A DNA stretch of 63,997 nt, counting the filler, from Diploschistes diacapsis (taxonomy: Eukaryota): NCBI GenBank assembly GCA_023645945.1. It is 7 parts of 7 records of this genome, joined end to end, with 100 filler letters (N's around TTAATTAATTAA, not from the genome) between each part and the next. Parts side by side here need not be neighbours in the genome. Positions count along the whole stretch, not along the records: positions 27,559 to 36,633 come from JALAIB010001075.1; 6 more parts are not named here. One strand, written 5' to 3'. Positions 5,532 through 60,769 of the stretch are shown piece by piece. A program made the translations under genes and the position numbers. Each line of letters starts with the position of its first letter. Positions within the stretch are counted from its first letter, which is position 1. The notes beneath the pieces are model-generated. The model was not told where the DNA came from. It saw nothing but the letters and a program-made list of their open reading frames with translations, and searched no databases.

Positions 5532-6561
5532 ATGGCTGAAATGTTGGCTGAAATGTTCTGGACTACGGCATTGGTTCTTCCTACCCGTGCTGCTGTCGCT
5601 CGACCGACACCCATCATTCTCCGAAAACCACGTCACTCTCCTTCGTCTGTCTTTCTTTTCTATAGAAACGAACCGCTGGTACGCCGATCACGGTATTCAA
5701 CGGGTATGTCGCCATTTTATTGAAAGTGCAAGGCTTTTGACAAGTAGCTAGTCGCAGCAGTAACGCACTTAGAGCCCACCGTTCCCTCTAGGTTTCGCCG
5801 ATTACTTAAATTCTGTGCCCTCGGTGCTGTCTTTACCATAACAGGTTTCGTCATGGCCGTCGCTCCCGCATGGCCTATGGCCAACCAAATGATCAATCCT
5901 CCTACGGACCAAGAGACCCTCAATATGTTCGCCCCTCCAGACGAGAAGGCGGCCACGATAGACACTCGCTTGATTAATCATCCAATTGCCCTCGAATTGA
6001 GAGCAAATCCCAATTATAAGGAGTCGAGGCCACACATGAAGATCCCAGAATCGATGAGGGCCCACCATCTGACTTCGGGAGCCCTGGCCGGACCTGGACG
6101 GATAGAGGTTCCGCCGTTGATGTTCATAGAGAAAGAGGGCAAGGGTGGGTTAACCCTTACGTATCTGGGATCAGATATCTGCGGTCACCCAGGCGTGGTA
6201 CATGGAGGAGCTATTGCTACGTTGTTAGATGAAAGCCTTGCAAGAAGCTGCTTCCAGGCTCTCCCGAATAAGGTTGGCCTAACCGCCAACCTTACTATCA
6301 ATTACAGGAATCCCGTCCGTGCCGAAAGTTATGTCGTCCTGCGCTCGAAAACGGTCAAGGTCGATGGGAGAAAAGTGTGGGTGGAGGGTACCTTGGAGTC
6401 CCTGCCTGAAGAAGGCGAGACACCAGTCATATACACCGAGGCGTCGGCCTTGTTCATTGAGCCCAAACAAGCGAAGGTAAGCTAGCAGGAATCTCAGGCT
6501 GGGACATCCAACACTGAATATATGTCAGACGATGTCACGGCTATATCCAGCCGCCTCGTAG
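5532..6561 (+). CDS. HotDog-fold (PaaI/4HBT) thioesterase, probably mitochondrial
   Basis: YLGSDICGHPGVVHGGAIATLLDESLARSCF...GLTANLTINYRNP motif. Basic N-terminal exon; introns ~5704-5751 (GTATGT..TAG) and 6477-6528 (GTAAGC..CAG); last exon TMSRLYPAAS*. Start Met uncertain (5532 or a downstream in-frame ATG). Confidence 0.85.
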
Positions 6562-6919: not shown

Positions 6920-8293
6920 ATGTCTAAAAACACGAAATACCTTCTAGTTTCCCTTCCAACGTCGATCTCGTCCTCCAACGCCCGCGATGAAGCTTTCGGC
7001 GCCCTACAGGCCAGTGTAGTCAAAGATAGCGAGTCGGTTGTACCCTTTACGATACCAGAGTTCAAAGTTGGAACCTTGGATGCATTAGTGCAACAGGCAG
7101 ATGACCTAGCGAAGCTTGAAGGCGCATGCGAAAGTGTAGCGAACAAGGTGGGAGACTCTTTGAGGACAATATTAGAGGGTGACGAGGGCAAAATTGCCCA
7201 GCAGAAAACGGTCAACGATAGTGAGTATGGGTTCACGAGCCTGCAATGCCTACGCTCATGCATCCTAGAGCCTGCTGACCAGTATCTGCGCTCTTTCAAT
7301 TGGAATAAGGTCAAGTACAGAGCGGATCGACCACTCAGCAGCCTAATAGACAACCTCCAGAAAGTATGTACTCTGTCTGTGCTACTACATATGATGAAGG
7401 TGAGCTGACCTGGGTTTCGAAGGAAATCACTAGCATAGACAACGATGTGAAGAGCAAGTACAACCAATATAACCAGGTCAAAACCAATTTGACCGCTCTG
7501 CAAAAACGACAGACGTGCGCAGGTTCCTCGAAGCGTTTCTTCTCAGGCTGACGGAACACCATAGCGGCAATCTTTCGAACAAATCTCTCGCCTCTATCGT
7601 CCCTCCAAAGCTCATCATCCAGGACTCCGAATATATCGAAACCCATCTCATCGCCGTCCCATCACAACTCACCAAAGACTTCTTGAAGAATTACGAGAGG
7701 TTGTCAACTTGGGTTGTGCCTCGCTCGGCCGTCAAGATTGACTCGGATGATGAGTTCGCACTCTACGCTGTTACAACGTTCAAGAAGTACAGTCCGGAAT
7801 TCATTCACAAGTGCCGGGAGCAGAAGTGGACGCCGAGAGAATACAAGCACAAGGAAGGCGGGAAGGAGGAGGAAAAGAGGGAGTTTGAGAAGGTGTCGAA
7901 AGAGGAGAGGAAGCTTTGGGGCGAGGTTCTGCGGTTGGCGCGCACCAACTGGGGCGAGGCAGTAATGGCGTGGATACACGTGCTCGTGCTACGGGTGTTT
8001 GTGGAAACTGTCCTGAGATATGGTCTACCGTTGTCTTTCGTTTGTGGGTTGATAAAGGTACGCCGAAGTGTCTTCGGCGAGCAAGCGTACACTAATCCTT
8101 CAAGACTACTCAGAAGCAAGAGAAGAGGATCCGCGATGCGCTCGACAACAACTACTCGTATCTGGCAGGCAATGCGATAGGACGCGATAAAAAAGGGCGG
8201 GTGGTCAAGGACAACATGAACGATATGCAGGTTGCGGGCCAAGGGAGTACAGAGTATTCAGCATACGTTTGTTACGACTTTGAGATCATTTAG
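6920..8293 (+). CDS. VMA5: V-type proton ATPase V1 subunit C
   Basis: MSKNTKYLLVSLP...IPEFKVGTLDALVQQADDLAKL, FNWNKVKYRADRPL, GNLSNKSL, VVPRSA, WIHVLVLRVFVETVLRYGLP. Four short introns (~7221, ~7365, ~7515, ~8058); stop TAG 8291-8293. Confidence 0.95.
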
Positions 8294-9107: not shown

Positions 9108-9207
9108 NNNNNNNNNNNNNNNNNNNNNNNNNNNNNNNNNNNNNNNNNNNNTTAATTAATTAANNNNNNNNNNNNNNNNNNNNNNNNNNNNNNNNNNNNN
9201 NNNNNNN
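9108..9207. other. Artificial contig spacer (44 N + TTAATTAATTAA + 44 N)
   Basis: Palindromic stop-in-all-frames linker, identical at all six gaps. Confidence 0.98.
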
Positions 9208-12629: not shown

Positions 12630-13436
12630 TCATCCCCTGCACCTGCTCCATGCCGGCAGCCCACAGCCAAAACCAACCAACAAGTAAATCAAAAACACAA
12701 CCACCACCCCCACAAGCACCATAAGCTTAACATTCTTCCACCACATCCTCCTCCTGAGCCCCCTACTCCTGACCCTGAAATCCCTCGCCCCCTCCCCCAA
12801 CCGATCCGTCTTATCCACCAGCAAATCGATCCTCTCCCCCCTCTCCAGCACGCGCTCGATATTCTCCGTCATGATGCCCCGCACGTTGTCGATCTCCGCC
12901 TGCACGTTCTTGACCGCGTCCTGCTTGCCCGCCTCCGTGCTGCCGTAGCTGTGCATCAGCTGCTTGAGCGTCGAGTTGAAAGCCGCGCAGCCGTAGGAGG
13001 GCAGGTCGCCGAAGTCTGTGCTTGTGGCGGGGTATTGCGCGAGAAAGCGGTTCTTGATCTCGACGAGGAAGCCAAAGGGGACGCGCCGGCCGAAGGACTG
13101 CGGGGCGATGACGAGGTAGACCAGGCCGCCGGGGGAGGAAGGATTGGAGGCGGAGGAGTATTCGGAAGGCGAAGAGGACATGTAGTGGATGTAGTGGTCG
13201 CCATGGGCGTAGGTGAGTTTCTGGGGCTGCGCGTGGGAGATTTTGGGGAGGATGAGGGAGGGCAGAGAAGAAGGGTTGCCTGTTGTGCTGGCGGTGTGCT
13301 CTGTTAGAAGAGTTGTGTTGTGGGCTATGCAGGCGCTAAGGAAGGGCGAAGTTAGCCATGATGTTTGCCCAGTGGAAGTTCAAGTAGAGGGGACATACTA
13401 GAGGAGAGGTGTCGGGGGTGTCGAGGAGGACGCCAT
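12630..13436 (-). CDS. NYV1: Longin-domain R-SNARE (Nyv1/VAMP7-like)
   Basis: Exon 1 MASSSTPPTPLL, intron 13398-13336, then YACIAHNTTLLTEH...LILPKISH (longin domain). Synaptobrevin motif EIDNVRGIMTENIERVLERGERIDLLVDKTDRL...LRRRMWWKNVKL, TM helix, GFGCGLPAW. Confidence 0.92.
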
Positions 13437-18283: not shown

Positions 18284-18383
18284 NNNNNNNNNNNNNNNNN
18301 NNNNNNNNNNNNNNNNNNNNNNNNNNNTTAATTAATTAANNNNNNNNNNNNNNNNNNNNNNNNNNNNNNNNNNNNNNNNNNNN
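18284..18383. other. Artificial contig spacer
   Basis: 44 N + TTAATTAATTAA + 44 N. Confidence 0.98.
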
Positions 18384-27458: not shown

Positions 27459-27558
27459 NNNNNNNNNNNNNNNNNNNNNNNNNNNNNNNNNNNNNNNNNN
27501 NNTTAATTAATTAANNNNNNNNNNNNNNNNNNNNNNNNNNNNNNNNNNNNNNNNNNNN
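27459..27558. other. Artificial contig spacer
   Basis: 44 N + TTAATTAATTAA + 44 N. Confidence 0.98.
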
Positions 27559-27892
27559 AGCTAACCCTGTTATAATACAGCAGAATAACGTGCTTTATTG
27601 ATATCATGATTAACCTAAAAATCGCTTAAACGGATATAGATTTAGATTCAAATTCTTATACCAAATTTATTAATAATTATAAAAACGTATAATAAAATAT
27701 TTTATAGAAAGAGGCTCATTTAGTTTAAATAGGTCCTCCGCATCGCATCCGACTGTTAACTTTCCTCCTTCTAAAAAGCTATTCTTGAACCCTTGCGCCA
27801 GACATTTCTTCGCATATCATCGTTTCTTGCCATCGGCCTCGATCATCCGAAAGAAGATTTCGATTATTTAGCTTTCGTCCTCATCTTCCAGC

Positions 27893-28672
27893 TTACCGAG
27901 GAGCTGCATAAACCAAGCCTGGATCCACACGATACAAATGCTCCTGCTTCTCGAGACCTTTCAGGTTAAGCGTGCCTACGTACTCGAACCTAGGTTCTCC
28001 TGTAGTAAAAATACTCGACCTATCTGGGCTTCGTTTTTTGTTATATTCCGCTAACTTCTTTTTATATGTGGTAGAATCCGGACGATTAGCTCGTGTTTCG
28101 GCGTTAAAAGAACGTTATACTTCGGAAAGAAAAACTTCGGATACAAGTATTTCGCTATCGTTAGCGAGCGAAGTTATCCGCGAAACACGGTTAATCATAT
28201 CTTTAAGATAATCCATACGTTTGGTAATATGATTCAATTGATACAGCGGAATATCTCAATACGCGCTAATACGGATCGAAAGTTTTCTACGAACAACCTT
28301 ACCATTGTTTTTAAAGAACTTTTGGCCATCGGCGTTATCTAATATCTCAACTGGCTAAGAAGCAGCTAGCAGAAGAAATTGAATAAAAAGATTCCACAAC
28401 AAAACCGCAGTAGGTGCTTAAAACGAAACCATAAATCCGTCGTTTATTGTTTTAATCTTATAACCACCGAATAACTTTAATTCGTTCCGAAAAACCTCGT
28501 CGTGAATTTTTATAATAAAACTCATGACTTCGGGGCTTAATTCCTATAAAACGCATGAATTCTTGATGTCGGTAAAAACGATAACTAAACGTCCAAATAG
28601 CGTTGGAACTTTTCTTACAGATTTCGAGAATAGCAAGCCAGGCGTTAACGGGTGGCTGGATGATCGTAACAT
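27893..28672 (-). pseudogene. RIP-inactivated stand-alone class III adenylyl cyclase catalytic domain (Cyr1-like), 260 codons
   Basis: One frame without frameshift: MLRSSS...GRLVIVFTDIKNSCVL*ELSPEVMSFIIKIHDEVFRNELKLFGGYKIKTINDGFMVSF*APTAVLLW...AS*PVEIL...RKLSIRISAY*DIP...TKRMDYLKDMINRVSRITSLANDSEILVSEVF...FEYVGTLNLKGLEKQEHLY. Colinear with the fungal AC consensus VFTDIKNST.LWE..P.AMR.AIK.HN..MRRQL...GGYEVKTEGDAFMV.F...GLSVRMGIHWG.P...TRRMDYFGPMVNRASRI...ADGGQI...LKGLE.PE. Confidence 0.9.
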
Positions 28673-29585
28673 TTATCTATTTAATTACTTTTTCTAGAAA
28701 ATAAGAATGCTTACAAGAACTTTTTTAATCGAAATTATTACGAGAATTTCTTCTATAGGTCAATCGGTTGATAATTATACCCGTAAACTTGCAATCCGGC
28801 CACGGTACACGATAATAAAAGATTCGAAAAACCACGGCTCTAGAAAAGTAATATAGACACTTCTTATTATATGAAATATCAGGATGAAGCATAAGATTTC
28901 TTTTTTATCGGCCGGTATCAGTAAGACCGGAAACGTTCTATAAGAAAAAATCGTCCAGGTTTCCTATTATACTCCGCTATTTCCGGTCTATTACTTTTTC
29001 CTACCTTTGTTCCCTTTCTACCATCTTCGGTTCCGTTGCTGAGACGATCTACTAAAATATTACAACATTAGGAAAGCCCTCTTGCTTCAAATATGAAGAA
29101 ATAAAGGTCGGATCAACTTGAGAAAGCGAACCTTGTAAGAACGTTATACATCTTATCAACGATAACGTTAGTTGCTAATATAGTGAGTCAAACTTGAAAA
29201 AAAGGACTTCTTAAGTTATAACGGGCAGCTCGCAAATCTAACATAAAATAAAACTCTTGCATGCGGTATGGCTTACACTTTACGAGGAAAGTGGCAATGT
29301 CCGCTTAAAAAAACATTTTGCGATTCCCATATAGTATGTTTACAACATACAACAGGAAGATTATAGCAGCGTAACTGGCTTTATGTCGAACGGGAACTAA
29401 AGTTCTCCTAATACGACGTACTATTAATGATACGGAAGTAATTTAATAACATCACTCATTCCTTACGAGTCCATTTAAGCGATTGGCCAGAAACGCAATA
29501 TCTAAAAAAAAAGATTATTTAATAAATCTTAACCGAAGCGCGGTATAAACGTAAAACGTTTCGAGAAGAAATAAAGATTTCGACG

Positions 29586-29990
29586 ATGGAAATGATCGAA
29601 AAGCAATACTTAAAGCCGTCACAAGAATAATACGAGTATGTCAGAAATCTTATGAAAGGCCGTAAAAAACATTTAACTATATATCGACGTATTTCAGGTA
29701 AATTAGTTATATATTGAATTTAAAACAACAAAGGAACCTAAAAGCATCATACGGCGGAAGCTTCTTCTACCGAACTTATTACTTATCAAAAAATAATTCT
29801 ACACAAACGCATTATTAAATTCATCAACGCAAGAAAAACTTTACAATACTGATTCAAGAACAGAATTACATATCGATTGATGCTAGAATACTACAACGGC
29901 AGCGACCCGGATCATCTTTTAAAATACGGAAGATTACGTATATATTTCTTTCCCGAAAGGTTCGTCCGGCACGTATTAAAAACAAACGTT
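29586..29990 (+). pseudogene. RIP-mutated protein kinase N-lobe/hinge fragment
   Basis: From ATG 29586: YEYVRNLMKG...YRRISGKLVIY*...TELITYQKIILHKRIIKF...RLMLEYYNGSDPDHLL, then after a frameshift PERFVRHVL. Matches H.RIVKF / LEYCDGGDL / PE.F.WHV of fungal kinases; no catalytic loop or DFG seen downstream. Confidence 0.6.
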
Positions 29991-30503
29991 GAAAACGTTG
30001 ACATAGATAGCGCTACAGCGGATCGAGAATCTGCATATGTACCTTAACAATTTTTCCTTTATTTCGATAAGTACCTAGAGCGGGCAGTATTCCGAAGTTA
30101 TATTAGAAACTTTTGACATTTCTAGATCTTTAATTGAAATAGAACCGAATCCGTCGTATAATAAAACGATTAAAGAATTTATTTATTTTTTACTCGACAA
30201 CATTACGTAGCCGGTTAGCAAGTACGTAAGACCTATTAATACTCCCTAGTATTCGCAGAGCATTAAATACTGGCTTAAAACGATCGGTAAAGGGCAAGTG
30301 AGGAATACCTTCTAGCTACTTATGCAGAGTTTGTATCCTCTAATTTCAAAATTTCATCGAGATAACCTCTTCTAGACAATTTCCAGATTAGATAGTTCAG
30401 CGTTTTCAGTATCTATAAAACAAAGAACAAAACAAAAAACATTAAACAGAAACGGATATTCTGTTTTATGAAACTTGTCTAAACCGTTCTTATATTTTCG
30501 AAT

Positions 30504-31390
30504 ATGGCCAGCTTCGGTACAGGTTCAGATTTAGTTTCGGGATGCGGTCTTATACTTTAAAACTATCTTTTTTACTACGGATAAGCTTAAAAGGTTGTCC
30601 GATAATACGCAGAACCTTTTAAGGTATCGCTAGGTTAATCTATCCCATGTTAATAGATTTAGAAGAGGTTAAAAGGCGTAAAAAAAATAGTAAAAGCGCG
30701 GCATTACGTTAACGACTCATGACCTAAGATAACAAAATGAATAAATAACATAATATCGGAATATACAATAACTTATAAAATTCTTAACAGTCTTTAAAAA
30801 CGTTATTCTCTAAATCCGAAAAGTACCTTAGAACGTAATCATTAAATACTAATAACTTTAGGTATTAGAATCTATAAAAAGTATAATAAGTACATTCTTT
30901 TTTCGATAGCTTCGTTGACCGCTTTATTCTCAAGCCTACATGCTAACGGACTGGGCTCTCGAGCCAATGAATCACCAGACCATTATCCCTAAGTTTCTCT
31001 CTCCATATTAAGACATTAAGCTCGCCGTTTAAACGCAAGCTAAAAAAAGCGCAGAATATAGAATACATAAACAATAAAAATACTTCTTTTACAACCTAAG
31101 CCACCATCACGGCGCTACTACCGATGATGCCGGTGGGAGAAAAGACGATAACGAACTTACTATCTTTTACCCGCAACGAGAATTACGGTCACCTACATAA
31201 AAAGCTCCGTCACACCTTAAAGAAACCGAAAGACGCAAAGGGAATTATTCAGAAAGTTAGAAGAAAGAAATAAAACGCTTTAAATTACCTAAACCAAACC
31301 CTTAAACATATATACAAAGACGAAAGAAACAAAAAGATAAAAAGAAACACGAGTAATAAAGAACTCGTTTTCGTTACAACGGGCTAAAAT
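30504..31390 (+). pseudogene. RIP-mutated ORF with helical N-terminus reminiscent of fungal SesA/HeLo-like STAND N-terminal domains
   Basis: MASFGTGSDLVSGCGLIL*NYLFYYG*A*KVVR*YAEPFK... followed by helical-looking segments with many TAA (likely CAA). Similarity limited to the MSFG..GD start pattern. Confidence 0.3.
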
Positions 31391-31543
31391 GTTCCTATAT
31401 TTCTATTATGTACAGACTAACGGCAGTTAGGGGACATAATCATACAATACAGTTTATTATTAAAGATCAAATGATAAATTAAACATACTCGAGTCCGCAA
31501 TAATCTATTATAATCTCTATATGCTTGCGTTCTCTAATATATT

Positions 31544-33212
31544 TTACGATATTACGTGATCTTCGCCAACCACCTGTTCTTCTAAAGTGCGCCTTAGCTC
31601 CGCGATAACGTTAATAGCCTTTCTGATGCTGGATTCTAGTTTTCGCTCTCGCTCGGATTTTTCTCTCTTCCAGCGCTCTGCCCATTTCTTCTCCCGGCGC
31701 CGCATGGTATTAAGCAGTCCATTTGATGCTACAAGTTTGATTACTTAATATTTTCATCCGTATAATTAACGAAATCTAAGGTTTTGTAATTGTCGTTATT
31801 GATTCCGCTGACGTGGGTCCGTTGATCTTTACGCGGCTTCGAAGGCATACGCCTATATTTTAAAGATAAAGAAGAAGTTCTTGCGATATGCAGGTATACG
31901 TTCTTTATAGACGTTATAACTAGGTAAGAACCGTTTTATGTTTCTGTCGTAGAAGAAGAAGTATCCGCGTCTACTATTAATATAGTAAAGTCGCCATCGT
32001 TTTAGAACTGGACATTAAGAAAGCTTATTAGTTCCTTAATATCAATAATTTTGTCGAAAGCGTTATCTAAATATTAATATTCGCTAATCGGGTTTATTAG
32101 GGTAAGATTTGAAAACACGAAGGCGCCGGACCCGCCGAATATAAGGTCAAAGATTCCTGCGAAAAAATCATTAAAGAAGCCTTATAATTCCGTAAGAAAT
32201 GCTTTATGGAAGAAATCGCGTTCTTATAACAAAAAGATGAATGTAAGTATATAAGATTCGATAGTAAAAGGACCGTTTAATCACTCGTTCCTAATTATTA
32301 TAAACTTATGATTATTAAAGTTACTTTTTACTTACGAGTTTTAAGATGTTATAAATTAATTCACTTATTCTATTCGTTAATAAACTGTATTTCGTAGAAA
32401 AAATGATTGATTAATAGATTTATAGGTTCAAAAAGGCCGAGTATAGTAGGCATCGGGTGTATATTATATCAAAATCCGAGAACATACGTTACAAATGATA
32501 AGCAAGATGTTCACGAAGAAATCGAAGCGAGGAATAATAACATTTAAGTCGAGTAAGGAAACTCGTCTTTAATTTTAAGTAAATTAAATATATCTTGCTT
32601 TAAAGTGATGCGATAATTTAGTAAAGATATTTAGTTCAAAAACTCTAGTCAATTAATTTTAATATATATTAATTATTTATTGCGCCGATTTCTTTTTTTA
32701 ACTATTACGTCAAATCCGGTGCCGGTTTCGATAAACCTTGAACAAAAGATAGCATTGTTAATAACTATAGACGACATGTTAGAGATCCTTAATCTATTAA
32801 TTTTAATCCTTTCGGCCAAGACATTTTTAGCTTTGTTATTATTGCAGAACTTCCAGAAATAGGTACTATAAGGCCGAATTTCTTATCTAACCGTTTCCAG
32901 GTTTTTAATAAAAGGGCGACTGATTCCGTTCGTTAGTTAGTCTATACGTAATACTTTTGCATTTCATTTTTCCATTATTTCTTTATTCACGCTTCATTCG
33001 ATATAAACAAAGGTACTAACTTAATTGACTATTTTATTAATTATCAGTAACGTTTTATCGATCTTAATCCTTTTATTGCACTTCAATTCCTTATTTAGAG
33101 ATATCTTCTTAATGTATGCGTCCGGCATCCATTCCAGCTTTTTTGATAATAATACGTTGTTCGAATGTTTCAGATTATATAAAACTAGCTATTTTTCGTT
33201 GCGGTGAACCAT
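31544..33212 (-). pseudogene. RIP-mutated intron-containing ORF of unknown function with a C-terminal charged coiled coil
   Basis: ATG 33212 (MVHRNEK*LVLYNLK...KLEWMPDAYI), GTTAGT donor and CTAAC..CAG acceptor, long frames broken by TAA/TAG, ending RRREKKWAERWKREKSERERKLESSIRKAINVIAELRRTLEE. Confidence 0.4.
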
Positions 33213-34046
33213 AATTTAAAGATCATCTTTTTGGAACTGAAGGTAGGTAAAGAATTTGTAAGTATTCTATATATCAGTCTACTTCCGAGCATCTTTTTAG
33301 TCAAATTATACCTATACTTTCGCGTTAGGCAGGCCTTATATACCCTGATTGACCTAGATGTGTATTGTAAATAAAGGATTATAAATGGCAAGCCTGTCCG
33401 TCTTTATAAAACGTGTTAAATAGTTAATATAGGGATTCACTCAATAAACTATACTTACCCTTGCTGTAAATAATAACGTTATGATTGGCAGAGACGTTCT
33501 TAGGACGAACAATAAATCAGTTTATAAATTATTTCTTATTTTTATTTTATGTTTCGTATTCGCGCTAGCGCAGGGCTTCCGAAGCATTTGCGCGGCACTG
33601 TTCTGAAGAATACTTAAATCGACGTAAAAATATTCAATAATAAATAGATCGCACAATCATATAAAATCGAATATTCTTATTCGCGCTTCGAGTATAAAGA
33701 AATATATATATTCCATACGTGACGATCGAGATCCGCGTAAACGCCATTATATACGTTTTGATAAAGCAAAACTGGCCGGATGTTCCTAATCTTTAAATAT
33801 CTGGATGAAAGAAAAGACAATGTTTATCGTTGGGCCAATTGGATCACTAACAGAATACATACAGAAAACTAAAAGATTAGAAGAAACCTTATATTATAAT
33901 ACAAATCGAGGAGCATTAAAAGCCTGCATACCGCATGCGTTATGACATATCCTTATTATTAGACATCAATTCGAGGCGCACGCCTGAAAGCTTGGTGATT
34001 TTGATTACAGAAACGAAAGTAATCCCAAAGCTTTACACGAGTTACC

Positions 34047-35443
34047 TACACACGCTTCCTTCTTTCGTCTATCGTCCTTTAAGCGCCGCATACATAACTT
34101 CACTAAGAATCATATTTGTACTATCAGTCCTTCGAAACAGCCTGATGTTATACATTTTATTAAACAACGTAAACTTTCTATAGCCCGTTTCATTGTATTC
34201 TTTTAACGCTAGAATTTGAATGCGTTCTAAAAGGCTGTATAAAAGCCTAAACCGGCGTTGATTTCGATCAGCCTAGCCTCGGATATAGCTTTTCATATCT
34301 AGAAGTTCGATATCTTCGGGCTTGAATTGCCCCTTCGAGTGGCGACCGAGCAATATTCGATTAGTGCCCGAAAAGTAAAGCTACGCCACGATATCGTTTA
34401 TAGGGAATTTACGCACGATCGTTTAGGATTTAATCTCGACCAGATTTTCGGTATTTATAGTTTTATTAATTTCGTACATCAGCAAACGTGGATAACTAAC
34501 AGCAAAAGACTTTTCCGAAACCTTAAACGACTCGAATCAGATATTTTTTTTTTTTATACATGCATCATTCTCGAATTAAACGATAAGATTTATACCTCCA
34601 AATTAATAATTTAAAATACGGTGGTAAGTGGCCAGCTTGATCTACTTACATTTTGGCTTGACGGTGTAATGGTTCTCGAATCCTAGATTGTATTTTCGAG
34701 AATGGTCTTTGGACGTAAGATTGGTGCTTTGGATCCATCGATTAAAAAACATCGTGTTTCTTACGACTTCGATATCGATCCGTATGTTAGATTCGATGAA
34801 GCTTATATTCCCGTTGTATAGATGGTATAATTCACGGAGATTTTTGAATCCCGTTATAATATTAATATCCTTAAATCGGAAATTCGGTTCTTATACTTTG
34901 ATTACCCTGAACAGCGGTTTGAAACAAGGTGCGTAAAGATTCGGGTTTCTTTTCTTTTAATAGTTCATGTTTGTTTTATTTAGGTCGAGATTTAAGAGCT
35001 CGTTTCGTATATTTAATCGTAAAGCAAATCTTATTTAGTTAGCGACGAATTGTAAGAAAGAAATTATACTAATCCGGTACTAATATTATTAATTTAAAGT
35101 TTAATGTCTAATTATAACTTGTAATGATTCGTTATCGTCGAATTTCGATACTATCCTTCATCGGTTTTATTAAGTTGACTTTTAATACGTGAACTTTTGT
35201 TTCTGAGTTTTCGGAGGCCGGAACAGTTTGCGATCGATTGTGATAAAAAATATAAACTCTTTTAAACCTATAGTGTTCAGTCGTTTCCTATTTTATGTAG
35301 GATTCCTTTCTTTTCGGGATCCTTGTTATCATATTATGCGAGTAAAGATAACGATTTGAAGAATAGCCGCCATTAAAGAAGAATATATACGGTCGTTTTG
35401 ACCTCGGACGGTTAAAAGGGTGCGGAACTTTCTTTAAAAGCAT
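34047..35443 (-). pseudogene. RIP-inactivated gene: two CCCH zinc fingers + DXO/Rai1-like (PD-(D/E)xK) domain
   Basis: ATG 35443. Y-x7-Y-x4-Y-x3-H and Y-x8-Y-x5-Y-x3-H, where each Tyr codon is TAT/TAC (one G>A from Cys). Then ITSYN*...IILVPG, PCFKPLFRVI..PNFRFKDINIITGFKNLRELY, IRIDIEVVRNTMFFNRW, LGFENHYT, YHRILNY*FGGINLIV*FENDAC, LVEIKS, VA*LYFSGTNRILLGRHSKGQF, *ADRNQRRFRLLYSLLERI. Confidence 0.8.
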
Positions 35444-36633
35444 TACGAAGGTTTTAGATGTTGTTAACCAGGCTGTGATCTCTTAATAAGATAGATAAGA
35501 TCTTATAAAGAACTAAAAAGCTTAGAACCTCTATCAGAATCTTAGAATTTTGGCCGAAAGACCATATTTCAGATAAATGCCGATCGATAATATAAAAGAA
35601 ACAAAATAGAGTTTCGTATTCGGATTTCTTTTTAAAAGTTTGGTCAATATTAATCGTTTATTATCTATCCGTTACGTATTCTGTATATACTGCCTAATTG
35701 CGTACTATTCGGTTGCGGGTTTTATTCTAGTTTTCGTATAATCGATGCTCGTTCGCTGCTATTAGTTAGTAATGGCGTTCTATCGTCGAAAAGTCGAAGG
35801 AGTTTATACTTCTTTAAAAAGTTTAGAGTACGTACGAAACCTATTTTAATCTTATATAACTAATAGGTATATCGGACGGATAAGATGGTTTATCAGTTAT
35901 TATTTCTTTAACGATCGCGAAAGTAAGAGATATTACGGCGATTATTTTAATCTTAGCCTGGATTCCAGCCTATATTTTTCATTTATTTGCCGTGTATCTG
36001 AGCTCAGTATGTTTAATTGGGGCAATTTTTTTAGCGAAATGGGTGACCCGAAGACATTATTTATAAATTATGATAACTAGGCTTGCGGAATCGATAACTC
36101 TTTCTGTCTAGGACTCGGAGGCAGTAATAATAATATTAGTTTTATCGATAAAAAGAGCGCTCGAAATCTTTTTTTTATTAATAATAAAGCTTTTATATAC
36201 CGAACATACACATTCCGGATCGTAAAAATAGTTGAATTTAATGTTATTTAGAACAACTTACTTTCAGCTACGATAAGAAGTTGGACGATATAAACTTAAA
36301 ATGTTGGCGGCATTATCTAAACGATCTATAATAAAACGAAAGCTGATAAATAAAAATAAAAACTAACGAAAAAAACGAATTAATAAATAAAAAAGAAAGC
36401 CTGGGCTCCTCGAACTAAAGGAAGACGTTAACTTTATAAACATTACGTTCCTCTCGACTTCAATGCTCGGAAAGCTCTAAAAACCCGGATTAAATAATTA
36501 AGAAAAAAAAGACCTCGAATTTCGAAACAAACAGACACGGGATTCTATTGCAGGCGTTTGATCGTAGCAAAGAATTTATAGGATATATAAATAAAATTAA
36601 TCGAAGATTAAATTAACTTAAACTACGTCGATT

Positions 36634-36733
36634 NNNNNNNNNNNNNNNNNNNNNNNNNNNNNNNNNNNNNNNNNNNNTTAATTAATTAANNNNNNNNNNN
36701 NNNNNNNNNNNNNNNNNNNNNNNNNNNNNNNNN
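36634..36733. other. Artificial contig spacer
   Basis: 44 N + TTAATTAATTAA + 44 N. Confidence 0.98.
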
Positions 36734-37085
36734 GGTGCTGGGGGCGCGAGTGATGCGGAGAGCGGGGTTGGGCGGAGTGCGTGGTGGGCGTGCTGGAGGA
36801 GAGGGATGGTTGTGGTGGCGGTTTTGGCGGATCTTGGGAGTCGTTGGGGTACGGTGATGGAGCGCTGGCTGCCGGTGCTGGCGCTGCTGTTGTAGCGGAA
36901 GTGGGGGAGGACGATAGGCCGAGCTCGGCTTCGAGGGAGGAAACGATGGCGTCGATGTCCTCTTCCTCCCCGCTATCCTCCTCCTTTGCGGTTCCGTGGC
37001 TCCCGTCGCTTTTCGGAGGGGCGGTTCCGTTCTGTAAAGTCTGTGACCCTGCGATGGGAGGTCTGGATGCTTGCTGGTCCGTCAT
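36734..37085 (-). CDS. 5' part of a hypothetical protein, truncated by contig end
   Basis: ATG 37085 (MTDQQASRPP...EEEDIDAIVSSLEAELG), open to the gap, GC-rich coding-like composition. Confidence 0.5.
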
Positions 37086-38277
37086 GGTAGATGTGGTGTC
37101 TGTTGGAGCGGAAGTGGCCTCTTCTCCCTTCCTTTTTGAAAGGAGGGGCGAACAGATGGCGTGCTTCCCCACTATTACTACTGTTGCTGCAGTTTGAGAA
37201 CTGAAGGTTGGTGTTTTGCCGCAGAGAATATCGGCAGGGCTTAGGCAAAATGAAGAAGAGAATTGACAGGCCGGACGTCGATATATTCCTGATTCTGCAG
37301 TAGCCGCTGATCTATATTTTTATCACCGCCCTCCTAGGGCTGGAAAAAGGCCACTGTAAAGTCGAGCCTTTGATATCGGTAGAGTTTGGTACTTTTTAGC
37401 GGATGCAGTAGGTAGAGAGGCTGTTTCTATGCGGCAAGAAGAAATGTACCGGAAAGAGTCATACTACTTTACCGGTTTAGGTATGGAATCAGACGGCGGA
37501 CCAAGGGGTCGCCCTCGCCCACTCAGCCTTTATTCACCTAGAAATATACCGTACCTGCCAAGCCGTGTAGCTCACAAAATAGTCCCCATAACAATTTTGT
37601 CTGCATCTTATGTCCACGATACTTTACGCAAATGGAAATACAAAAACTTAGCGTGTACGCAAATTAACCGTCAGTCAGCCCTACGAAGTTTGTATTTAGT
37701 GCTGCTTCACCCCTTCAACCCGTCGGCCACGTTCTATGCTATAGGGCTCCTTGTCGCAAACCTTAACTAGAGCACTGCACTGCACTGCACTGCACAGTTT
37801 ATGAAAGTTACCACCGCCATTAGCACCAGCTAAAATTGTCACGGAAGATACTTCTGACTGGGGCATTTCAAAAGCCCTTGAATATATATTCCTGCCCAAA
37901 TTTGGAGGTCTCGTTGGATTTGCTAAAAAAAAAAAAAGCTAACTGGCCTTCATCGCCAGAGAGCGCTTTCGTTGGATCCATGTGTTGCCAGGCAGCTCTT
38001 CCCCAGATTCCGGCAATAAACCATTGGTCTTTAACTGTTCTGGTATGCAAGATTATCGACATCAAAAGATGGCGTCATAAAATGGCACTGGAATGGGCTG
38101 TGCATGGCTTAGAGGATGCTGAGGGGAAACATGCAATTTGCTGTCTGCCTAATGCTACACCCTGAGTCCCTTCTATTTTAGTCAAATCTACTCTATGCAT
38201 TCTCTAATACTTACCCAATTCCTCGCCGTTTTTGAGACTTTCGATTCCCCAAAGATGATCTTTCTCCCGCCGATGAC

Positions 38278-43927: not shown

Positions 43928-45808
43928 TACTGATGGAAAAAGTCAGAGATTATCGCCAGTGGAATCGATGGTAGAATTTGTGTGGTGGCAAAATTCAGAG
44001 TACCGTGCACCTGTGGCTGCGTGCCGGGGTCCTAGCTTTCCTGTACCAAAGCTGAAGCAGGTATGCGCGAGAAAGCCGCAACTGAAGGCACACGACGGAG
44101 TCAGCATGTTAAGTCCCAAACATTGGAGCAGCTGATGGGCGCCTACCTGGAAGAAAAGATCAGAATCAAGGAGCTACAGAAGACCGTCAAGACCTTGCCT
44201 TCCCATATACAAGGCGATGGATTGATCGAGGAAAGGGAGAAACGGCGTGCAGAATATTAGTAGGCTCCCTTGATAGGCAAGGTAAAAGAGCTTTTCGCGC
44301 AACGAGCCCCCTTCGTTTGCCCAGCGAAATGGGGTTGTGTAATCTTCCAGCAGGCACCCGTCCAGTTATCGGGTGCAGATGGAAAAGGTGATGGCGGACT
44401 CCCCCGCAGTCGTAGCCTTCCAGCAGAACACAACGCCGCTTTGCCTCATATGCGATGGCAGAGAGAAAAGGCAAAAGGGGCAGGAAGCGCGTTTGCGTTT
44501 GAGTTGAAGGTTGGGGGAAAGGTTCGAGATATTGGGTGTGTGGGATGAAGCACGCAAGGGAGGTAGAATTGCGGCGTTCGTGTGTGGAATGTGGTATTAT
44601 ATATCCTAGGAGGGGAGTGTGTGAAACTCTGGAAGTGTTACCAGAGAACTGTAAGTAGTCAATAGCTGCCGACAACGATAGCGATAGGATAGCGAGCGAT
44701 TCGAAATTGAAATTGAAGTATACGGGGTGGTGCTAGGGACAGTGCCAGTGCCAATGCCAGTGGGGAGTGGGAGTGGAAGTTTACTACTTACTACCTACCC
44801 TCAAGGCTACAAGTAAAGGGACATACATGTTTAGTTCAGCAGATTACTTATCTGGCTTTTGGGGTTTTTATCCAAGTCAAAACAACAATTGCAGAGCGCT
44901 TGACTCAGCCTTCTGACTCTGCCCATTTTTACTGACTGTATATAGTTCTCTGCTGAAAATGGCGTAGTGGTCCCTCAGCCCATCAATTTTTCAAGCGCCC
45001 CAGTCCCAAGTGATGATGAATGAACCTTGTGAGTGGGAATACTTTCCATAGATAGATAGGATAGATAGATGGCCCTTATTATGCTGGGTGGGTAAGGGAT
45101 ATGTCACTTGTCAAACCTGCTCCAGTTTCCAGGTTTCCCACCAGCAAAACCCTGGTAGTATCATCTTTGGTGACACTTAAAGCAGCTCCACTCCTCCCTA
45201 CTACCTACTGCCTACCCAAGTTATATGAACCACTTACTCTTTCTTTCCAGAGCTCGCTTGAGGGGCAACACCATAGGTGGCGTAGTACAGTACGGAGCAT
45301 GCAAGCTGGATGACTTCTCAACTTCCCCATACACCATTATTTTCCTTCTGCGGTTGTATCTGGGGGCCCAAGCTCCCAGTAGTAGCTTGATACAGGCTCG
45401 AAAACAATCGAGCCTAGTATCATAAAGCGTTAAACTAAGGGACGCCTTTTTCCATGCGCACCAAAGGCTAGTGGCGCTCTACCTGGAGAGCATTTAAGCT
45501 TCTTCTCTCCTTGATTGAGAAGGTTGTTATCATTGCATGCCAAATACCTCGCATGCATACGTGTTCCTTGTCCCGTGGGTTAAGCATAACCCAGATAACT
45601 AAAAGATTTATATGGTTAAGAAACTCAAGTAAATAATGGTGACAGCCACTCCTCAACTAGGCCTTACAAAGAAAAACCCCATCATCCACGCGTACAGAAT
45701 GAGCGAATTAAGTTAGTCGGCCCACTCCACCAGATCATGGCAAGAACCTAGTAGAACTCCAAGACATGCAAGACACATACAACTAGCCTCCTCCTCCACA
45801 CATTTTGC

Positions 45809-45908
45809 NNNNNNNNNNNNNNNNNNNNNNNNNNNNNNNNNNNNNNNNNNNNTTAATTAATTAANNNNNNNNNNNNNNNNNNNNNNNNNNNNNNNNNNNN
45901 NNNNNNNN
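45809..45908. other. Artificial contig spacer
   Basis: 44 N + TTAATTAATTAA + 44 N. Confidence 0.98.
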
Positions 45909-46400
45909 AACATGCTAGAAGCTTAGTAAGCAATCTGACTAACCTATTTAGGTTAGTATTCTGACATTCCGTTATTACGTACGAAATTAATATATTTATA
46001 GGGCAATAATGTCTTGGGTTCCCCCAGGCGGCGGCGGCGGTGTATTAAAAAAAATGAGGAAAAAGGGTCCGTACGACTGGCTCGTCGTCGGAAAAATAAT
46101 AGTTAACGGGCTTCGTTCATAACGTGACGTAACGTGCGGTTCTTGTTCTACCCGATGTATTTATATTTTTTAAATTATAAAGTATATAATGCGAAAGCGA
46201 TTCGGCCTTCTTGAATATTTATAATAAGAAAATGTTATCGTACGAAAGATAAAAATGTTAAGAAATATATTTTACGAAAGTGCAGGGATTGTGTTCCGTT
46301 TGGTATTTGTGTTCCGTTGCGTGATGAAACATGTTAGAATACCTATAAAATTAGTAAGTATCCGCATTAGTAATCTGCCAAGGGAAATCGATCAATCAAA
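45909..46400. repeat. Short AT-rich, RIP-like relic at contig start
   Basis: TpA-rich, CpG-retaining composition like 27559-36633; no identifiable domain. Confidence 0.4.
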
Positions 46401-47047
46401 GTATTTGAATTTGGCCCTCATATCCCCATATCCACAAAGCAAGTGAACTCAACCCATTAGATATTAGATACACGTGCTACCTACGAGAGCTATATAAGAG
46501 CAGTTTGACCCAGGTGGGCATATCAGTAGCAGCTTCAAGCACCCTGTACTGGTTTCAATATCCCGTATACTATTCCGCTTTTGCGCAAGCAAGAATGGGG
46601 AAGCTACTAGTAGTAGTATCCTTGGTCGAGCAGGCTTAGAAGTTTAGATAGAACACGGCTGGAGGTAGTTAAGCTTTGCAAGCAAGCAATTAATAATTAA
46701 TCTTGAAAGTCTAATCGAGATTGTGTGACTGTGTGATGTGTGATGGGGAACAAGCCTAGGGGTGATAATAGTCCTAGTCCCACAAGAGGAGAAGCGCTGA
46801 GGAGGCTAGTAATTCAATTCCCAAACAGAGCCTCTCGACTTTCTCAAACAAGTCTCGGAATTAGAATTATCTAGCAATCTATCTCTCAAGCCAAAGTTTG
46901 ATCAGATCATCTTTTTCTTCCGAAATCAAGCCCAAGGTCCAAAAGGAACACAAGATGGGTTGCAGTGACATGAACCACCACACTTCCCCGCCAAGGATCT
47001 TCCCGGTCAGCGATTGATTGATAAATCCCCTTGCTTTTTCTGCGCCC

Positions 47048-54967: not shown

Positions 54968-55067
54968 NNNNNNNNNNNNNNNNNNNNNNNNNNNNNNNNN
55001 NNNNNNNNNNNTTAATTAATTAANNNNNNNNNNNNNNNNNNNNNNNNNNNNNNNNNNNNNNNNNNNN
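54968..55067. other. Artificial contig spacer
   Basis: 44 N + TTAATTAATTAA + 44 N. Confidence 0.98.
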
Positions 55068-60600: not shown

Positions 60601-60769
60601 TCTCCTTAACAACGGAGGCGGTATCGAAGAGGCTTGGGCTGAATACTCCAAGACTGGGGAAAAAGTCGCCAAAGACCCAAAGTGCAAAGTCTTGGGCTCA
60701 TTGTTTCAGGATTGGTTCAACTGGCTAACATCAGCGAAACCCGAACTACAGAGCACCAGAGCTTGTTGA
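57682..60769 (+). CDS. POL5: Pol5 (DNA polymerase phi / MYBBP1A-like rRNA biogenesis factor)
   Basis: QLVEIFEDLANENGEIRLKAA, RLIRGLCSGRKAARLGFSVALTEFL, EKRDHYLGRLFAL, KKSWLREECGWLL, SSKERKHRGF, NFDHLTKGKTLE, EDMNDEQMAALD, AKENIVQFKSRVLELIEIY. Introns ~58033, ~58643, ~59817. Confidence 0.93.

What the first reader, a model, noticed from the sequence alone, without database searches (positions are those of the whole stretch)
27893..28672. Stand-alone Cyr1-type adenylyl cyclase catalytic domain
Seen: 260 codons in one frame, with stops at expected Trp/Gln-like positions. An in-frame Met lies ~30 codons before VFTDIK, and no LRR or PP2C sequence is recognisable upstream. Both metal-binding Asp (FTD, ND), the ATP-specifying Lys (IKT) and Asp (RMDY), and the transition-state Asn/Arg (NRVSR) survive. 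Established: canonical fungal Cyr1 is a large, usually single-copy RA-LRR-PP2C-cyclase protein. Inference: this was an accessory, Ras-uncoupled cyclase paralogue that was duplicated or mobile before RIP.
Basis: partly seen in the sequence, partly recalled or inferred. Interest (0 to 1): 0.8.

Follow-up and report, generated by a model that had tools for sequence, protein, structure and literature searches.

The report
RIP-killed stand-alone fungal adenylyl cyclase gene
This is a dead copy, wrecked by the fungal genome-defence process RIP, of a small adenylyl cyclase made of the catalytic domain alone, and it points to a little-known family of such mini-cyclases in lichen-forming fungi and black yeasts.

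Summary
On the minus strand, 27893-28672 is a 260-codon frame with 5 internal stops. It matches Pfam PF00211 (E 2.8e-9) and keeps all six catalytic residues.

All five stops sit where intact relatives have Trp or Gln, and each is reachable by C>T/G>A alone.

The closest relatives are not Cyr1. They are cyclase-only proteins of 248-277 aa (43-51% identity), including a Thelotrema lepadinum protein, with the same Met start and about the same end. True Cyr1 proteins reach 35-39%. No LRR or PP2C is detectable in the 8 kb upstream.

In a careful tree the pseudogene falls in this short family (100/99). Together with short cyclases of black yeasts, the family forms a clade (96/94) nested among Pezizomycotina Cyr1/AcyA/CR-1 domains.

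The "window" is seven unlinked contigs. The pseudogene's 9,075-nt contig is RIP-like throughout. Contigs of another public run tile it collinearly and differ at 1,046 A>G/T>C places against 22 in the reverse direction, so an un-mutated copy exists in a close relative.

Verdict: a young RIP pseudogene of an accessory, Cyr1-derived stand-alone cyclase. Duplication or mobility is inferred, not shown.

The parts
27893..28672 (-). Pseudogene of a stand-alone class III adenylyl cyclase: 260 codons, single frame, no intron needed
   Evidence: Translation. PF00211 E 2.8e-9. Collinear with P0001/P0002/P0003 from Met1 to the C-end.
28670..28672 (-). ATG that aligns with the start Met of the intact short homologues P0001 and P0002
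   Evidence: Alignment A1.
28103..28591 (-). Core of the cyclase homology domain (Pfam PF00211 match, residues 28-190)
   Evidence: The catalytic hexad DKDDNR is kept.
28544..28546 (-). Premature stop 1 (codon 43, TAG) where homologues have Trp
28418..28420 (-). Premature stop 2 (codon 85, TAA) where homologues have Gln
28355..28357 (-). Premature stop 3 (codon 106, TAG) where homologues have Trp
28256..28258 (-). Premature stop 4 (codon 139, TGA) where homologues have Trp
28115..28117 (-). Premature stop 5 (codon 186, TAA) where homologues have Gln
27893..27895 (-). Terminal TAA, probably the native stop
   Evidence: The short homologues end 6-7 codons earlier. No difference to the un-mutated copy of run X2 is listed at this codon among the 34 differences printed for 27597-28034; the printed list may be incomplete.
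27559..36633 (.). The whole 9,075-nt contig: a large RIP-affected region that holds the pseudogene 334 nt from one end
   Evidence: GC 0.34, TpA/ApT 1.07 and (CpA+TpG)/(ApC+GpT) 0.73, against 0.51, 0.78 and 1.26 in the other six contigs. X2 contigs tile it with 1,046 A>G/T>C against 22 C>T/G>A places.
27459..27558 (.). Artificial spacer (44 N + TTAATTAATTAA + 44 N): the end of the contig, not genomic sequence
36634..36733 (.). Artificial spacer at the other end of the contig

Best explanation
Window 27893-28672 (minus strand) is a recently inactivated pseudogene of a small, single-domain class III adenylyl cyclase. The gene belongs to a rare family of about 250-aa proteins that consist only of a Cyr1-type catalytic domain. 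They have no Ras-association, leucine-rich-repeat or PP2C parts and no C-terminal tail. The family occurs in lichen-forming fungi and, as a sister group, in black yeasts (Chaetothyriales). It descends from the catalytic domain of the canonical Pezizomycotina cyclase (Cyr1/AcyA/CR-1). [quoted passage not shown] G:C>A:T transitions made five stop codons from Trp/Gln codons and many missense changes. Inferred for the intact family: the proteins keep the full catalytic set and a confident cyclase fold. They should therefore form head-to-tail homodimers with two shared active sites and make cAMP from ATP without Ras or G-alpha input. Like the isolated Cyr1 catalytic domain, they may be stimulated by bicarbonate/CO2. 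Also inferred: RIP needs repeated DNA, so the 9-kb segment was probably duplicated or part of a large repeated or mobile element in this lineage.
For: 1. Frame, stops and Pfam match.
2. Short intact relatives with the same start and end: P0001 248 aa, 51% identity (121/239); P0002 251 aa, 45%; P0003 277 aa, 43%. Further members are P0036, P0086, P0177 and P0183.
3. Profile score gap: family 320-467 bits (partial P0086 215), every other protein at most 250.6. Cyr1 rows mostly carry about 100-560 residues after the domain (a few gene models have fewer than 20); the family carries 0-5.
4. Careful ML tree of 59 rows: family including the pseudogene 100/99. With black-yeast short cyclases (Capronia epimyces A1O3_07067, Exophiala dermatitidis, Knufia peltigerae) 96/94. 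This clade sits inside a 24-row group (92/86) with Paecilomyces variotii AcyA and Neurospora cr-1. An AU test rejects keeping the pseudogene outside the short clade (delta lnL 35.2, p 0.011).
5. No LRR or PP2C in the rest of the contig.
6. RIP: all 5 stops lie at W/Q. Of 125 residue differences to P0001, 54 are explained by C>T/G>A only, against 17 by the reverse transitions and 11 by a control transversion pair. RIP indices. In the CDS CpA+TpG total 61 while CpG is still 52.
7. Un-mutated counterpart: contigs of run X2 (another study) cover about 8,860 of 9,075 nt collinearly at about 88% identity. The differences are A>G 548 and T>C 498, against C>T 11, G>A 11 and 6 transversions. The load is 10-15% in seven of the eight pieces and 4% in the last, 182-nt piece.
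8. Catalytic hexad D-K-D-D-N-R is kept in P0001-3, in the 5 black-yeast proteins and in the pseudogene.
9. AlphaFold2 model of P0001: pLDDT 83.4, pTM 0.80. Best PDB folds are the trypanosome adenylyl cyclase catalytic domains 1fx4/1fx2 (E 1e-17); by sequence E 9e-29.
10. Passages of PMC2987819: class III cyclases act only as dimers with shared sites, Cyr1p is homodimeric, and CO2/HCO3- directly activates its catalytic domain through Lys1373.
Against: No enzyme activity, dimer or expression was tested for any family member. The dimer prediction could not be run.
The five internal stops could not be checked directly in the X2 copy, because only the first 34 of 1,074 differences (27597-28034) were printed.
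No second copy of the segment was seen. blastn of the contig against the other six contigs found only itself. In the likely source run X1, 10 of 12 laid contigs were at least 99% alike, and no 88%-type copy appeared among the 8 records printed. Duplication therefore rests on the known rule of RIP, not on an observed repeat.
No transposase, Starship captain, terminal repeat or other domain was found in the contig.
Four of the eight family A rows are N-terminally short gene models starting at the same internal Met; one lacks the Lys and one the Arg. Part of the family may itself be decaying.
The sample is a lichen metagenome, so it is not shown which fungus owns the contig.
The short clades sit on long branches (0.7-1.2 changes per column), so their union (96/94) could owe something to long-branch attraction.
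Confidence: 0.85

Rival explanations
1. The frame is a partial duplicate of the 3' end of the host's canonical Cyr1 gene, copied without its LRR/PP2C part and then hit by RIP. On this reading it is not a member of a separate stand-alone family.
For: The domain is clearly Cyr1-type and collinear with Cyr1, including its inserts. A weak resemblance to the Cyr1 tail continues for 21 codons past the stop (GRK..N..L..D....W). The host's Cyr1 is not available for comparison.
Against: Identity to short proteins is 43-51% against 35-39% to Cyr1. Family signatures cannot arise from Cyr1 residues by C>T/G>A: NDG from GDG (Cyr1 has GDA) and KDM from GDM (Cyr1 has GPM). Clade support is 100/99 and the AU test gives p 0.011. 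Start Met and end match the short proteins. The un-mutated X2 locus is collinear for 9 kb, and that stretch shows no LRR or PP2C.
Confidence: 0.04
2. The cyclase gene itself was single-copy. It was mutated by RIP 'leaking' from neighbouring repeated transposons inside an AT-rich repeat island, not because the gene was duplicated or mobile.
For: RIP leakage into unique flanking DNA is known from other ascomycetes (recalled, not from a call). X2 depth rises above the flat figure of about 70 only outside the cyclase part (229 at 32407-32709; 136-165 at 36043-36633). That suggests repeats elsewhere in the contig, while the cyclase part is covered by one contig only. No second copy was seen.
Against: The mutation load is even over the contig: 10.8, 15.4, 10.5, 11.2, 14.0, 15.2 and 13.3% per X2 piece, and 3.8% in the last 182 nt. 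There is no decline away from a repeat. No recognisable transposon protein lies anywhere in the contig, and no internal repeats. Adding the 1,046 changes back gives a GC of about 0.46, near the 0.48-0.55 of the gene-bearing contigs, so the progenitor did not look like an old repeat island.
Confidence: 0.2
3. The AT-richness and stops come from a process other than RIP. Candidates are ordinary decay of an old pseudogene, deamination of methylated CpG, or a deviant genetic code that reads these stops.
For: Without a cross or a second copy, RIP is identified only by its signature.
Against: 97% of 1,074 differing places are one-directional transitions, and non-RIP-type differences are only 28 in about 8,900 nt (0.3%). 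The event is therefore recent and mutationally uniform. CpG is not depleted (52 in the CDS) whereas CpA/TpG are. All three stop codons occur, and at both W and Q positions, which no single code change explains. The other contigs have normal indices.
Confidence: 0.03

Closest known systems
Canonical fungal adenylyl cyclase Cyr1/Cdc35 (Candida, Saccharomyces), AcyA (Eurotiales), CR-1 (Neurospora)
   Same: Same class III catalytic domain with the same long inserts and the same six catalytic residues. The short family is nested among these domains in the tree.
   Different: Cyr1-type hits are 1,000-2,600 aa with LRR (PF00560/PF13855), PP2C (PF00481) and other domains, and mostly about 100-560 residues after the cyclase domain. 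The family here is 248-277 aa, cyclase domain only, with 0-5 residues after it. Signature changes are GDG for GDA and GDM for GPM.
Short cyclase-only proteins of black yeasts: Capronia epimyces A1O3_07067 (314 aa), Exophiala dermatitidis 'Adenylate cyclase' (449 aa), Knufia peltigerae H2204_005001 (449 aa). All are database entries and, as far as my searches show, uncharacterised.
   Same: PF00211 only, full catalytic hexad, and the same clade as the lichen family (96/94).
   Different: Only 35-39% identical to P0001. They form their own long branch (100/100). Two carry an extra N-terminal stretch of roughly 150-175 aa, rich in Arg/Ser, and all carry a conserved HWHQV..GVKGNVR tail.
Trypanosome receptor-type adenylyl cyclases GRESAG4.1/4.3 catalytic domains (PDB 1fx2, 1fx4)
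   Same: Closest solved structures both by sequence (E 9e-29) and by fold (E 1e-17, TM 0.66-0.71).
   Different: 25% identity. They are the intracellular domains of membrane receptors.
Bicarbonate-responsive soluble adenylyl cyclases (mammalian sAC, cyanobacterial CyaC 1wc0)
   Same: Soluble class III cyclases. The Cyr1 catalytic domain is placed in this functional subfamily by PMC2987819 (passages). CyaC is a fold match (E 6e-11).
   Different: 14-15% identity to CyaC. Bicarbonate response of the short family is untested.
Large RIP-affected regions (LRARs) of lichen-forming Lecanoromycetes, as described for Xanthoria (bioRxiv 10.1101/2025.11.25.690456; passages seen)
   Same: A low-GC block with RIP signature longer than 4 kb, in a lichen sample.
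   Different: In that preprint's passages LRARs are repeat-dense. Here no repeat or transposon remnant was recognised, and the block holds a former host-type signalling gene. The word 'cyclase' does not occur in that paper.

Membership tests
Class III nucleotidyl cyclase (Pfam PF00211) | Sequence match above the curated Pfam threshold | tested here: met
   37.3 bits against a cut-off of 21.9, E 2.8e-9, despite 5 stops read as X.
Class III nucleotidyl cyclase (Pfam PF00211) | Two metal-binding Asp, the Lys/Asp adenine-specifying pair and the transition-state Asn/Arg (residue roles recalled from the literature on class III cyclases) | tested here: met
   DKDDNR at the columns of P0001 D30, K69, D73, D149, N156, R160, in the pseudogene, in P0001-3 and in the 5 black-yeast proteins. 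Of the 40 rows of A4: 36 D (4 gaps), 39 K, 39 D, 40 D, 37 N, 39 R.
Class III nucleotidyl cyclase (Pfam PF00211) | Cyclase homology fold | tested here: met
   Tested on the intact homologue P0001, not on the pseudogene. AF2 pLDDT 83.4; Foldseek best hits are all adenylyl/guanylyl cyclase domains, 1fx4 E 1e-17.
Class III nucleotidyl cyclase (Pfam PF00211) | Dimer with shared active sites; cyclase activity | not tested
   The homodimer prediction was never accepted because the queue was full.
Functional gene (as opposed to pseudogene) | Uninterrupted reading frame | tested here: not met
   Five in-frame stops, plus RIP-type missense changes at conserved Gly, e.g. GDG>NDG and GD>KD.
Canonical fungal Cyr1/CR-1/AcyA | LRR and PP2C domains N-terminal of the cyclase domain in the same gene | tested here: not met
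   No Pfam hit other than PF00211 in six frames of the contig. Full-length Cyr1 queries hit only with residues 1354-1630 or 1343-1619. Intact relatives are 248-277 aa.
Canonical fungal Cyr1/CR-1/AcyA | C-terminal tail after the cyclase domain | tested here: not met
   0-5 residues after the domain in the family, against mostly about 100-560 in the full-length Cyr1-type rows; a few gene models have fewer than 20.
Canonical fungal Cyr1/CR-1/AcyA | Catalytic domain of Cyr1 descent | tested here: met
   Collinear including the inserts. Nested with Paecilomyces AcyA and Neurospora cr-1 domains, apart from protist outgroups (100/99).
Stand-alone short cyclase family A (P0001, P0002, P0003, P0036, P0086, P0177, P0183) | Clade membership, shared start and end, family signatures | tested here: met
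   100/99 clade. AU p 0.011 against exclusion. Met1 and the C-end align. Profile score 450.6 bits, against at most 250.6 for non-members.
RIP-affected region | Dinucleotide indices (TpA/ApT high, (CpA+TpG)/(ApC+GpT) low; usual thresholds 0.89 and 1.03, recalled) | tested here: met
   1.07 and 0.73 for the contig, against 0.78 and 1.26 for the other six contigs.
RIP-affected region | One-directional G:C>A:T transitions relative to an un-mutated copy | tested here: met
   1,046 against 22 places relative to X2 contigs.
RIP-affected region | A duplicated partner sequence that triggered RIP | tested here: inconclusive
   None in the window, and none recognised among the printed X1 records. No genome is held.
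Starship or other mobile-element cargo | Captain tyrosine recombinase or transposase, terminal repeats, target-site duplication | tested here: inconclusive
   None found in the 9 kb, but the contig is short and heavily mutated.

The most novel reading that the evidence does not exclude
Lichen-forming fungi and the black yeasts that live with them carry a second, minimal adenylyl cyclase. It would be a free Cyr1 catalytic domain acting as a Ras- and G-protein-independent cAMP source, perhaps gated by CO2/bicarbonate, which would be of obvious use next to a photosynthetic partner. On this reading the gene is dispensable and sits on a large duplicated or mobile segment of at least 9 kb. It is therefore present and intact in one lineage and freshly destroyed by RIP in a sibling that differs by only about 0.3% at other sites. 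That would be a natural knock-out pair for testing what the enzyme does in the symbiosis.
Probability: 0.12. Interest if true: 0.75.

Novelty: new variant of a known kind. Interest (0 to 1): 0.5.

Why it matters
Fungal cAMP signalling is usually described as running through one large, multi-sensor cyclase; for example, a paper title in the listing reads 'the sole adenylyl cyclase Cyr1 of Candida albicans'.

A conserved clade of catalytic-domain-only paralogues with all catalytic residues would be a second, differently regulated source of cAMP. It occurs in annotated genomes of at least four named species.

I found no description of such a paralogue in eight full-text searches. For these I saw listings and abstract starts only, plus passages of two papers.

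The pseudogene itself does nothing now. Together with the un-mutated copy in a close relative, it gives a dated before-and-after example of RIP removing a host-type signalling gene in a lichen fungus. It also shows that the gene is dispensable in at least one lineage.

There is a practical side too: the Thelotrema member is mislabelled 'cysteinyl-tRNA synthetase' in NCBI.

Tried and rejected
- Whole-genome search for PF00211 in the host: no genome is held, so no comparison with the host's own Cyr1.
- Earlier notes of this scan: nothing by place, sequence or words.
- JGI metagenome scan with the family alignment: 270 of 597 candidate stretches were relatives and 80 were kept. The best full-domain identities were 43-48%, i.e. 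ordinary Cyr1 level, so no clear family member. One partial match (L022, 54% over residues 20-148) was not followed up.
- Repeats in the contig: 0 direct families and 4 weak inverted pairs of 26-35 nt at 71-78%. No tandem repeats. No Rfam family.
- Scan for low stop density to find other dead genes in the contig: not discriminating, since many frames pass.
- Expression: no RNA holder listed.
- Runs X3 and X4 (same study as X1): nothing, or 42 nt, laid.
There is no result of any kind.
- Considered and dropped: a deviant genetic code, CpG-methylation decay and a Cyr1 fragment (see rivals).
- Considered and dropped: recent horizontal transfer between Chaetothyriales and Lecanoromycetes as the origin of the family. 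The two groups are only 35-39% identical, so nothing points to a recent event.
Full report
**What the window is.** The 63,997-nt window is not one stretch of genome. Runs of N lie at 9108-9207, 18284-18383, 27459-27558, 36634-36733, 45809-45908 and 54968-55067. Each is 44 N + TTAATTAATTAA + 44 N. They split the window into seven pieces of 9107, 9076, 9075, 9075, 9075, 9059 and 8930 nt, that is, contigs of a fragmented assembly laid end to end. The only public run that holds the stretch completely is labelled 'lichen metagenome' and may be its source. The finding lies in the fourth piece, 27559-36633. Everything beyond the spacers is unlinked.

**The observation.** On the minus strand, 27893-28672 translates as 260 codons from a Met to a TAA, with five internal stops. 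With the stops read as X the frame matches Pfam PF00211 (Guanylate_cyc) at 37.3 bits, cut-off 21.9, E 2.8e-9, over residues 28-190.
- VFTDIK starts at codon 32.
- The stops are codon 43 TAG, 85 TAA, 106 TAG, 139 TGA and 186 TAA. In all three full-length intact homologues these columns hold W, Q, W, W, Q, and each stop is reachable by C>T or G>A alone.

**Relatives: a family of short, cyclase-only proteins.**
- A search restricted to proteins of 143-455 aa found three hits among 306 candidates: P0001 (248 aa, 50% identity), P0002 (251 aa, 45%) and P0003 (277 aa, 44%). All carry PF00211 only.
- The search among proteins of 456-2000 aa found eight hits among 1,223 candidates. Seven are Cyr1-type (LRR and/or PP2C plus cyclase) at 33-39% identity.
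- P0001 is NCBI MCJ1333144.1 of the lichen-forming fungus Thelotrema lepadinum, on an 82-kb contig. It is mislabelled 'cysteinyl-tRNA synthetase'.
- The pseudogene's Met aligns with the first Met of P0001 and P0002 (MLRSSS against MLQTSS). Its end (LKGLEKQEHLYRV...) aligns with their last residues, and its stop lies 6-7 codons later. No gap suggests an intron.
- An exhaustive profile search of 1.84 billion cluster representatives gave 24,726 hits at E <= 0.001, of which the best 150 were listed.
- When all stored proteins were re-scored with the family profile, members scored 320-467 bits (a 165-aa fragment scored 215). Every other protein scored at most 250.6. Cyr1-type rows mostly carry about 100-560 residues after the domain, although a few gene models have fewer than 20. 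The family carries 0-5.
- A last word-based search with the family alignment listed 120 of 231 hits at E <= 1e-20. It added two more members (P0177, P0183; 56% to P0001).
- That search also found a second set of short cyclase-only proteins in annotated genomes. They are Capronia epimyces A1O3_07067 (314 aa), Exophiala dermatitidis 'Adenylate cyclase' (449 aa) and Knufia peltigerae H2204_005001 (449 aa), plus unnamed ones of 253-294 aa on contigs of up to 2 Mb.

**Phylogeny.** From the 297 stored proteins I chose 59 rows:
- the pseudogene;
- 7 family A proteins;
- 5 black-yeast-type rows (B);
- 2 rows of a third short type (C);
- 9 other short proteins;
- 30 Cyr1-type domains, picked by hand from the Cyr1-type hits (88 of which cover the domain in full);
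- 5 domains of multi-cyclase protist-like proteins as outgroup.
All other stored proteins were left out. The careful IQ-TREE run (LG+C20+F+G4) gave these results:
- Family A with the pseudogene has support 100/99.
- A + B + C + P0150 form a 17-row clade with support 96/94.
- That clade sits inside a 24-row group (92/86) that includes P0054 and P0071. These are Paecilomyces variotii AcyA and Neurospora cr-1.
- An AU test rejects the best tree in which the 16 short proteins form a clade without the pseudogene (delta lnL 35.2, p-AU 0.011). The group was named after seeing the tree.
- The short clades have long stems (0.7-1.2), so the union of A, B and C deserves caution.
So the frame is 'Cyr1-type' by descent, but it belongs to a separate stand-alone lineage and is not a piece of Cyr1.

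**Nothing of Cyr1 upstream.** All six frames of 27560-37200, read through with X, were scanned against Pfam at E <= 0.1. Only PF00211 appeared. tblastn with two complete Cyr1 proteins (1745 and 1695 aa) against all seven contigs hit only this frame, and only with their residues 1354-1630 and 1343-1619. The degraded cyclase domain is still found at E 1e-9, so a PP2C or LRR block with the same damage should have shown. Family signatures also argue against a Cyr1 fragment. The pseudogene has NDG and KDM where the family has GDG and GDM, which are RIP-type changes of Gly codons. Cyr1 has GDA and GPM there, which cannot give these residues by C>T/G>A.

**RIP, shown directly.**
- The contig has GC 0.34, TpA/ApT 1.07 and (CpA+TpG)/(ApC+GpT) 0.73. 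The other six contigs together have 0.51, 0.78 and 1.26.
- Of 125 residue differences to P0001, 54 can be explained by C>T/G>A alone, 17 by the reverse transitions and 11 by a control transversion pair. The figures are similar for P0002 and P0003.
- The strongest evidence came from laying public contigs on the whole contig at 80% or more likeness. Run X2 ('organism A', a different study) tiles it collinearly with eight contigs that cover about 8,860 of 9,075 nt.
- One of those contigs, 3,673 nt long, spans 27559-31142 and so includes the cyclase frame.
- The differing places are A>G 548 and T>C 498, against C>T 11, G>A 11 and six transversions.
- The per-piece load is 10.8, 15.4, 10.5, 11.2, 14.0, 15.2, 13.3 and 3.8%.
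- The window copy is therefore the same locus after about 1,050 G:C>A:T transitions. At all other kinds of site the two differ by only 28 places (about 0.3%).
- Hence the event is recent and organism A is a close relative. Adding the changes back gives a GC of about 0.46, close to the other contigs.
- Only the first 34 differences (27597-28034) were printed. In the last 48 codons they make 11 changes, 6 of them amino-acid changes, and none touches the terminal stop.
- The five internal stops lie outside the printed range, so their absence from organism A is inferred and not seen.
- In the likely source run X1, 10 of 12 laid contigs are at least 99% alike, and no un-mutated copy appears among the 8 printed records.

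**How the intact gene most likely works (inference).**
- P0001-3 and the black-yeast proteins keep the full catalytic hexad.
- The AlphaFold2 model of P0001 is confident (pLDDT 83.4, pTM 0.80).
- Its best structural matches are adenylyl cyclase catalytic domains (1fx4/1fx2 E 1e-17, then mycobacterial, CyaB, RhoGC and CyaC domains). The same entries lead the sequence search.
- Passages of PMC2987819 state three things. Class III cyclases are active only as dimers with shared sites. Cyr1p is a homodimer with two identical sites. CO2/HCO3- directly activates its C-terminal catalytic domain through Lys1373, which that paper calls essential for substrate binding in active sites; I take it to correspond to K69 of P0001, an alignment I did not make.
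- A free domain that keeps all residues on one chain should therefore form a homodimer and make cAMP. It has none of the parts through which Ras, G-alpha, peptidoglycan or CAP act on Cyr1, and it may respond to bicarbonate.
- None of this was tested. The homodimer prediction was never accepted by the queue.

**Why RIP struck here.** RIP acts on repeated DNA (established knowledge, and passages of the Xanthoria Starship preprint). The even load over at least 9 kb and the absence of recognisable transposon remains fit a large duplicated segment or a large element better than leakage from a neighbouring repeat. But no partner copy, captain gene or terminal repeat was seen, and the contig ends 334 nt beyond the gene. 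I put duplication or mobility at roughly 0.55 and leakage at 0.2.

**Novelty and verdict.** The fold, the chemistry and RIP are all well known, and the pseudogene is inert. What is new is the architecture: a conserved clade of Cyr1-derived, catalytic-domain-only cyclases in Lecanoromycetes and Chaetothyriales. The databases hold them only as hypothetical, generically named or mislabelled proteins. My eight literature searches found no description of them (listings and abstract starts only, plus passages of two papers). The un-mutated copy in a sibling lineage makes a natural knock-out pair. I rate this a new variant of a known kind, interest 0.5. Its clause on duplication or mobility remains an inference.

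Noticed in passing
window 9108-9207, 18284-18383, 27459-27558, 36634-36733, 45809-45908, 54968-55067: The window is seven unlinked contigs of 8.9-9.1 kb in descending length, joined by 100-nt spacers (44 N + TTAATTAATTAA + 44 N). Gene neighbourhoods across spacers are artefacts.
   Followed up: yes
window 27699-29571 against the rest of 27559-36633: In run X1, the Logan contig that holds the pseudogene has k-mer depth 83.1. The other contigs of the same 9 kb have 12-27.5. Extra identical copies, or several strains, could explain this, but depth of this kind is not a copy number.
   Followed up: no
P0001 (NCBI MCJ1333144.1, Thelotrema lepadinum): The protein is named 'cysteinyl-tRNA synthetase', although it is a 248-aa protein with only a PF00211 cyclase domain. 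This is a database misannotation.
   Followed up: partly
P0263 (Knufia peltigerae), P0277 (Exophiala dermatitidis): The black-yeast short cyclases carry an N-terminal extension of roughly 150-175 aa, rich in Arg/Ser, which looks like a targeting sequence. All group B members share a conserved C-terminal HWHQV..GVKGNVR motif that family A lacks.
   Followed up: no
P0036, P0086, P0177, P0183: Four of the eight family A rows (seven proteins plus the pseudogene) are gene models that all begin at the same internal Met (P0001 M45) and so lack the first metal-binding Asp. P0086 also has Glu for the substrate Lys, and P0183 has Gln for the Arg. They may be truncated calls or decaying copies.
   Followed up: no
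window 27830-27892 (minus strand, past the stop): The 21 codons after the terminal stop show a weak resemblance to the tail of Cyr1 that follows the domain (GRK..N..L..D....W; 8 of 21) in the tblastn alignments with P0005 and P0007. This may be chance.
   Followed up: no
L022 (metagenome contig, match 1058-1520): A partial match of 54% identity to P0001 residues 20-148 was the highest identity among the 80 metagenome loci. It could be a further family member or just the conserved half of a Cyr1.
   Followed up: no
window 45501-46500: There is an AT-richer patch (GC 0.38-0.39, TpA/ApT 0.98-1.11, (CpA+TpG)/(ApC+GpT) 0.83-1.08) at the facing ends of contigs 5 and 6. It looks like further RIP-affected DNA at contig breaks.
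   Followed up: partly
window 5748-6485 +, 7473-8180 +, 12630-13379 -, 58084-60769 +: The other contigs carry ordinary eukaryotic genes: a 4HBT thioesterase, V-ATPase subunit C, a longin/synaptobrevin SNARE, and DNA polymerase phi (Pol5) split over three frames, presumably by introns.
   Followed up: partly
window 32407-32709 and 36043-36633: In run X2 the summed depth rises from about 70 to 230 and to 136-165 in these two places. One short record of depth about 1,500 overlaps 32665. Parts of the 9 kb seem to be repeated in organism A.
   Followed up: no
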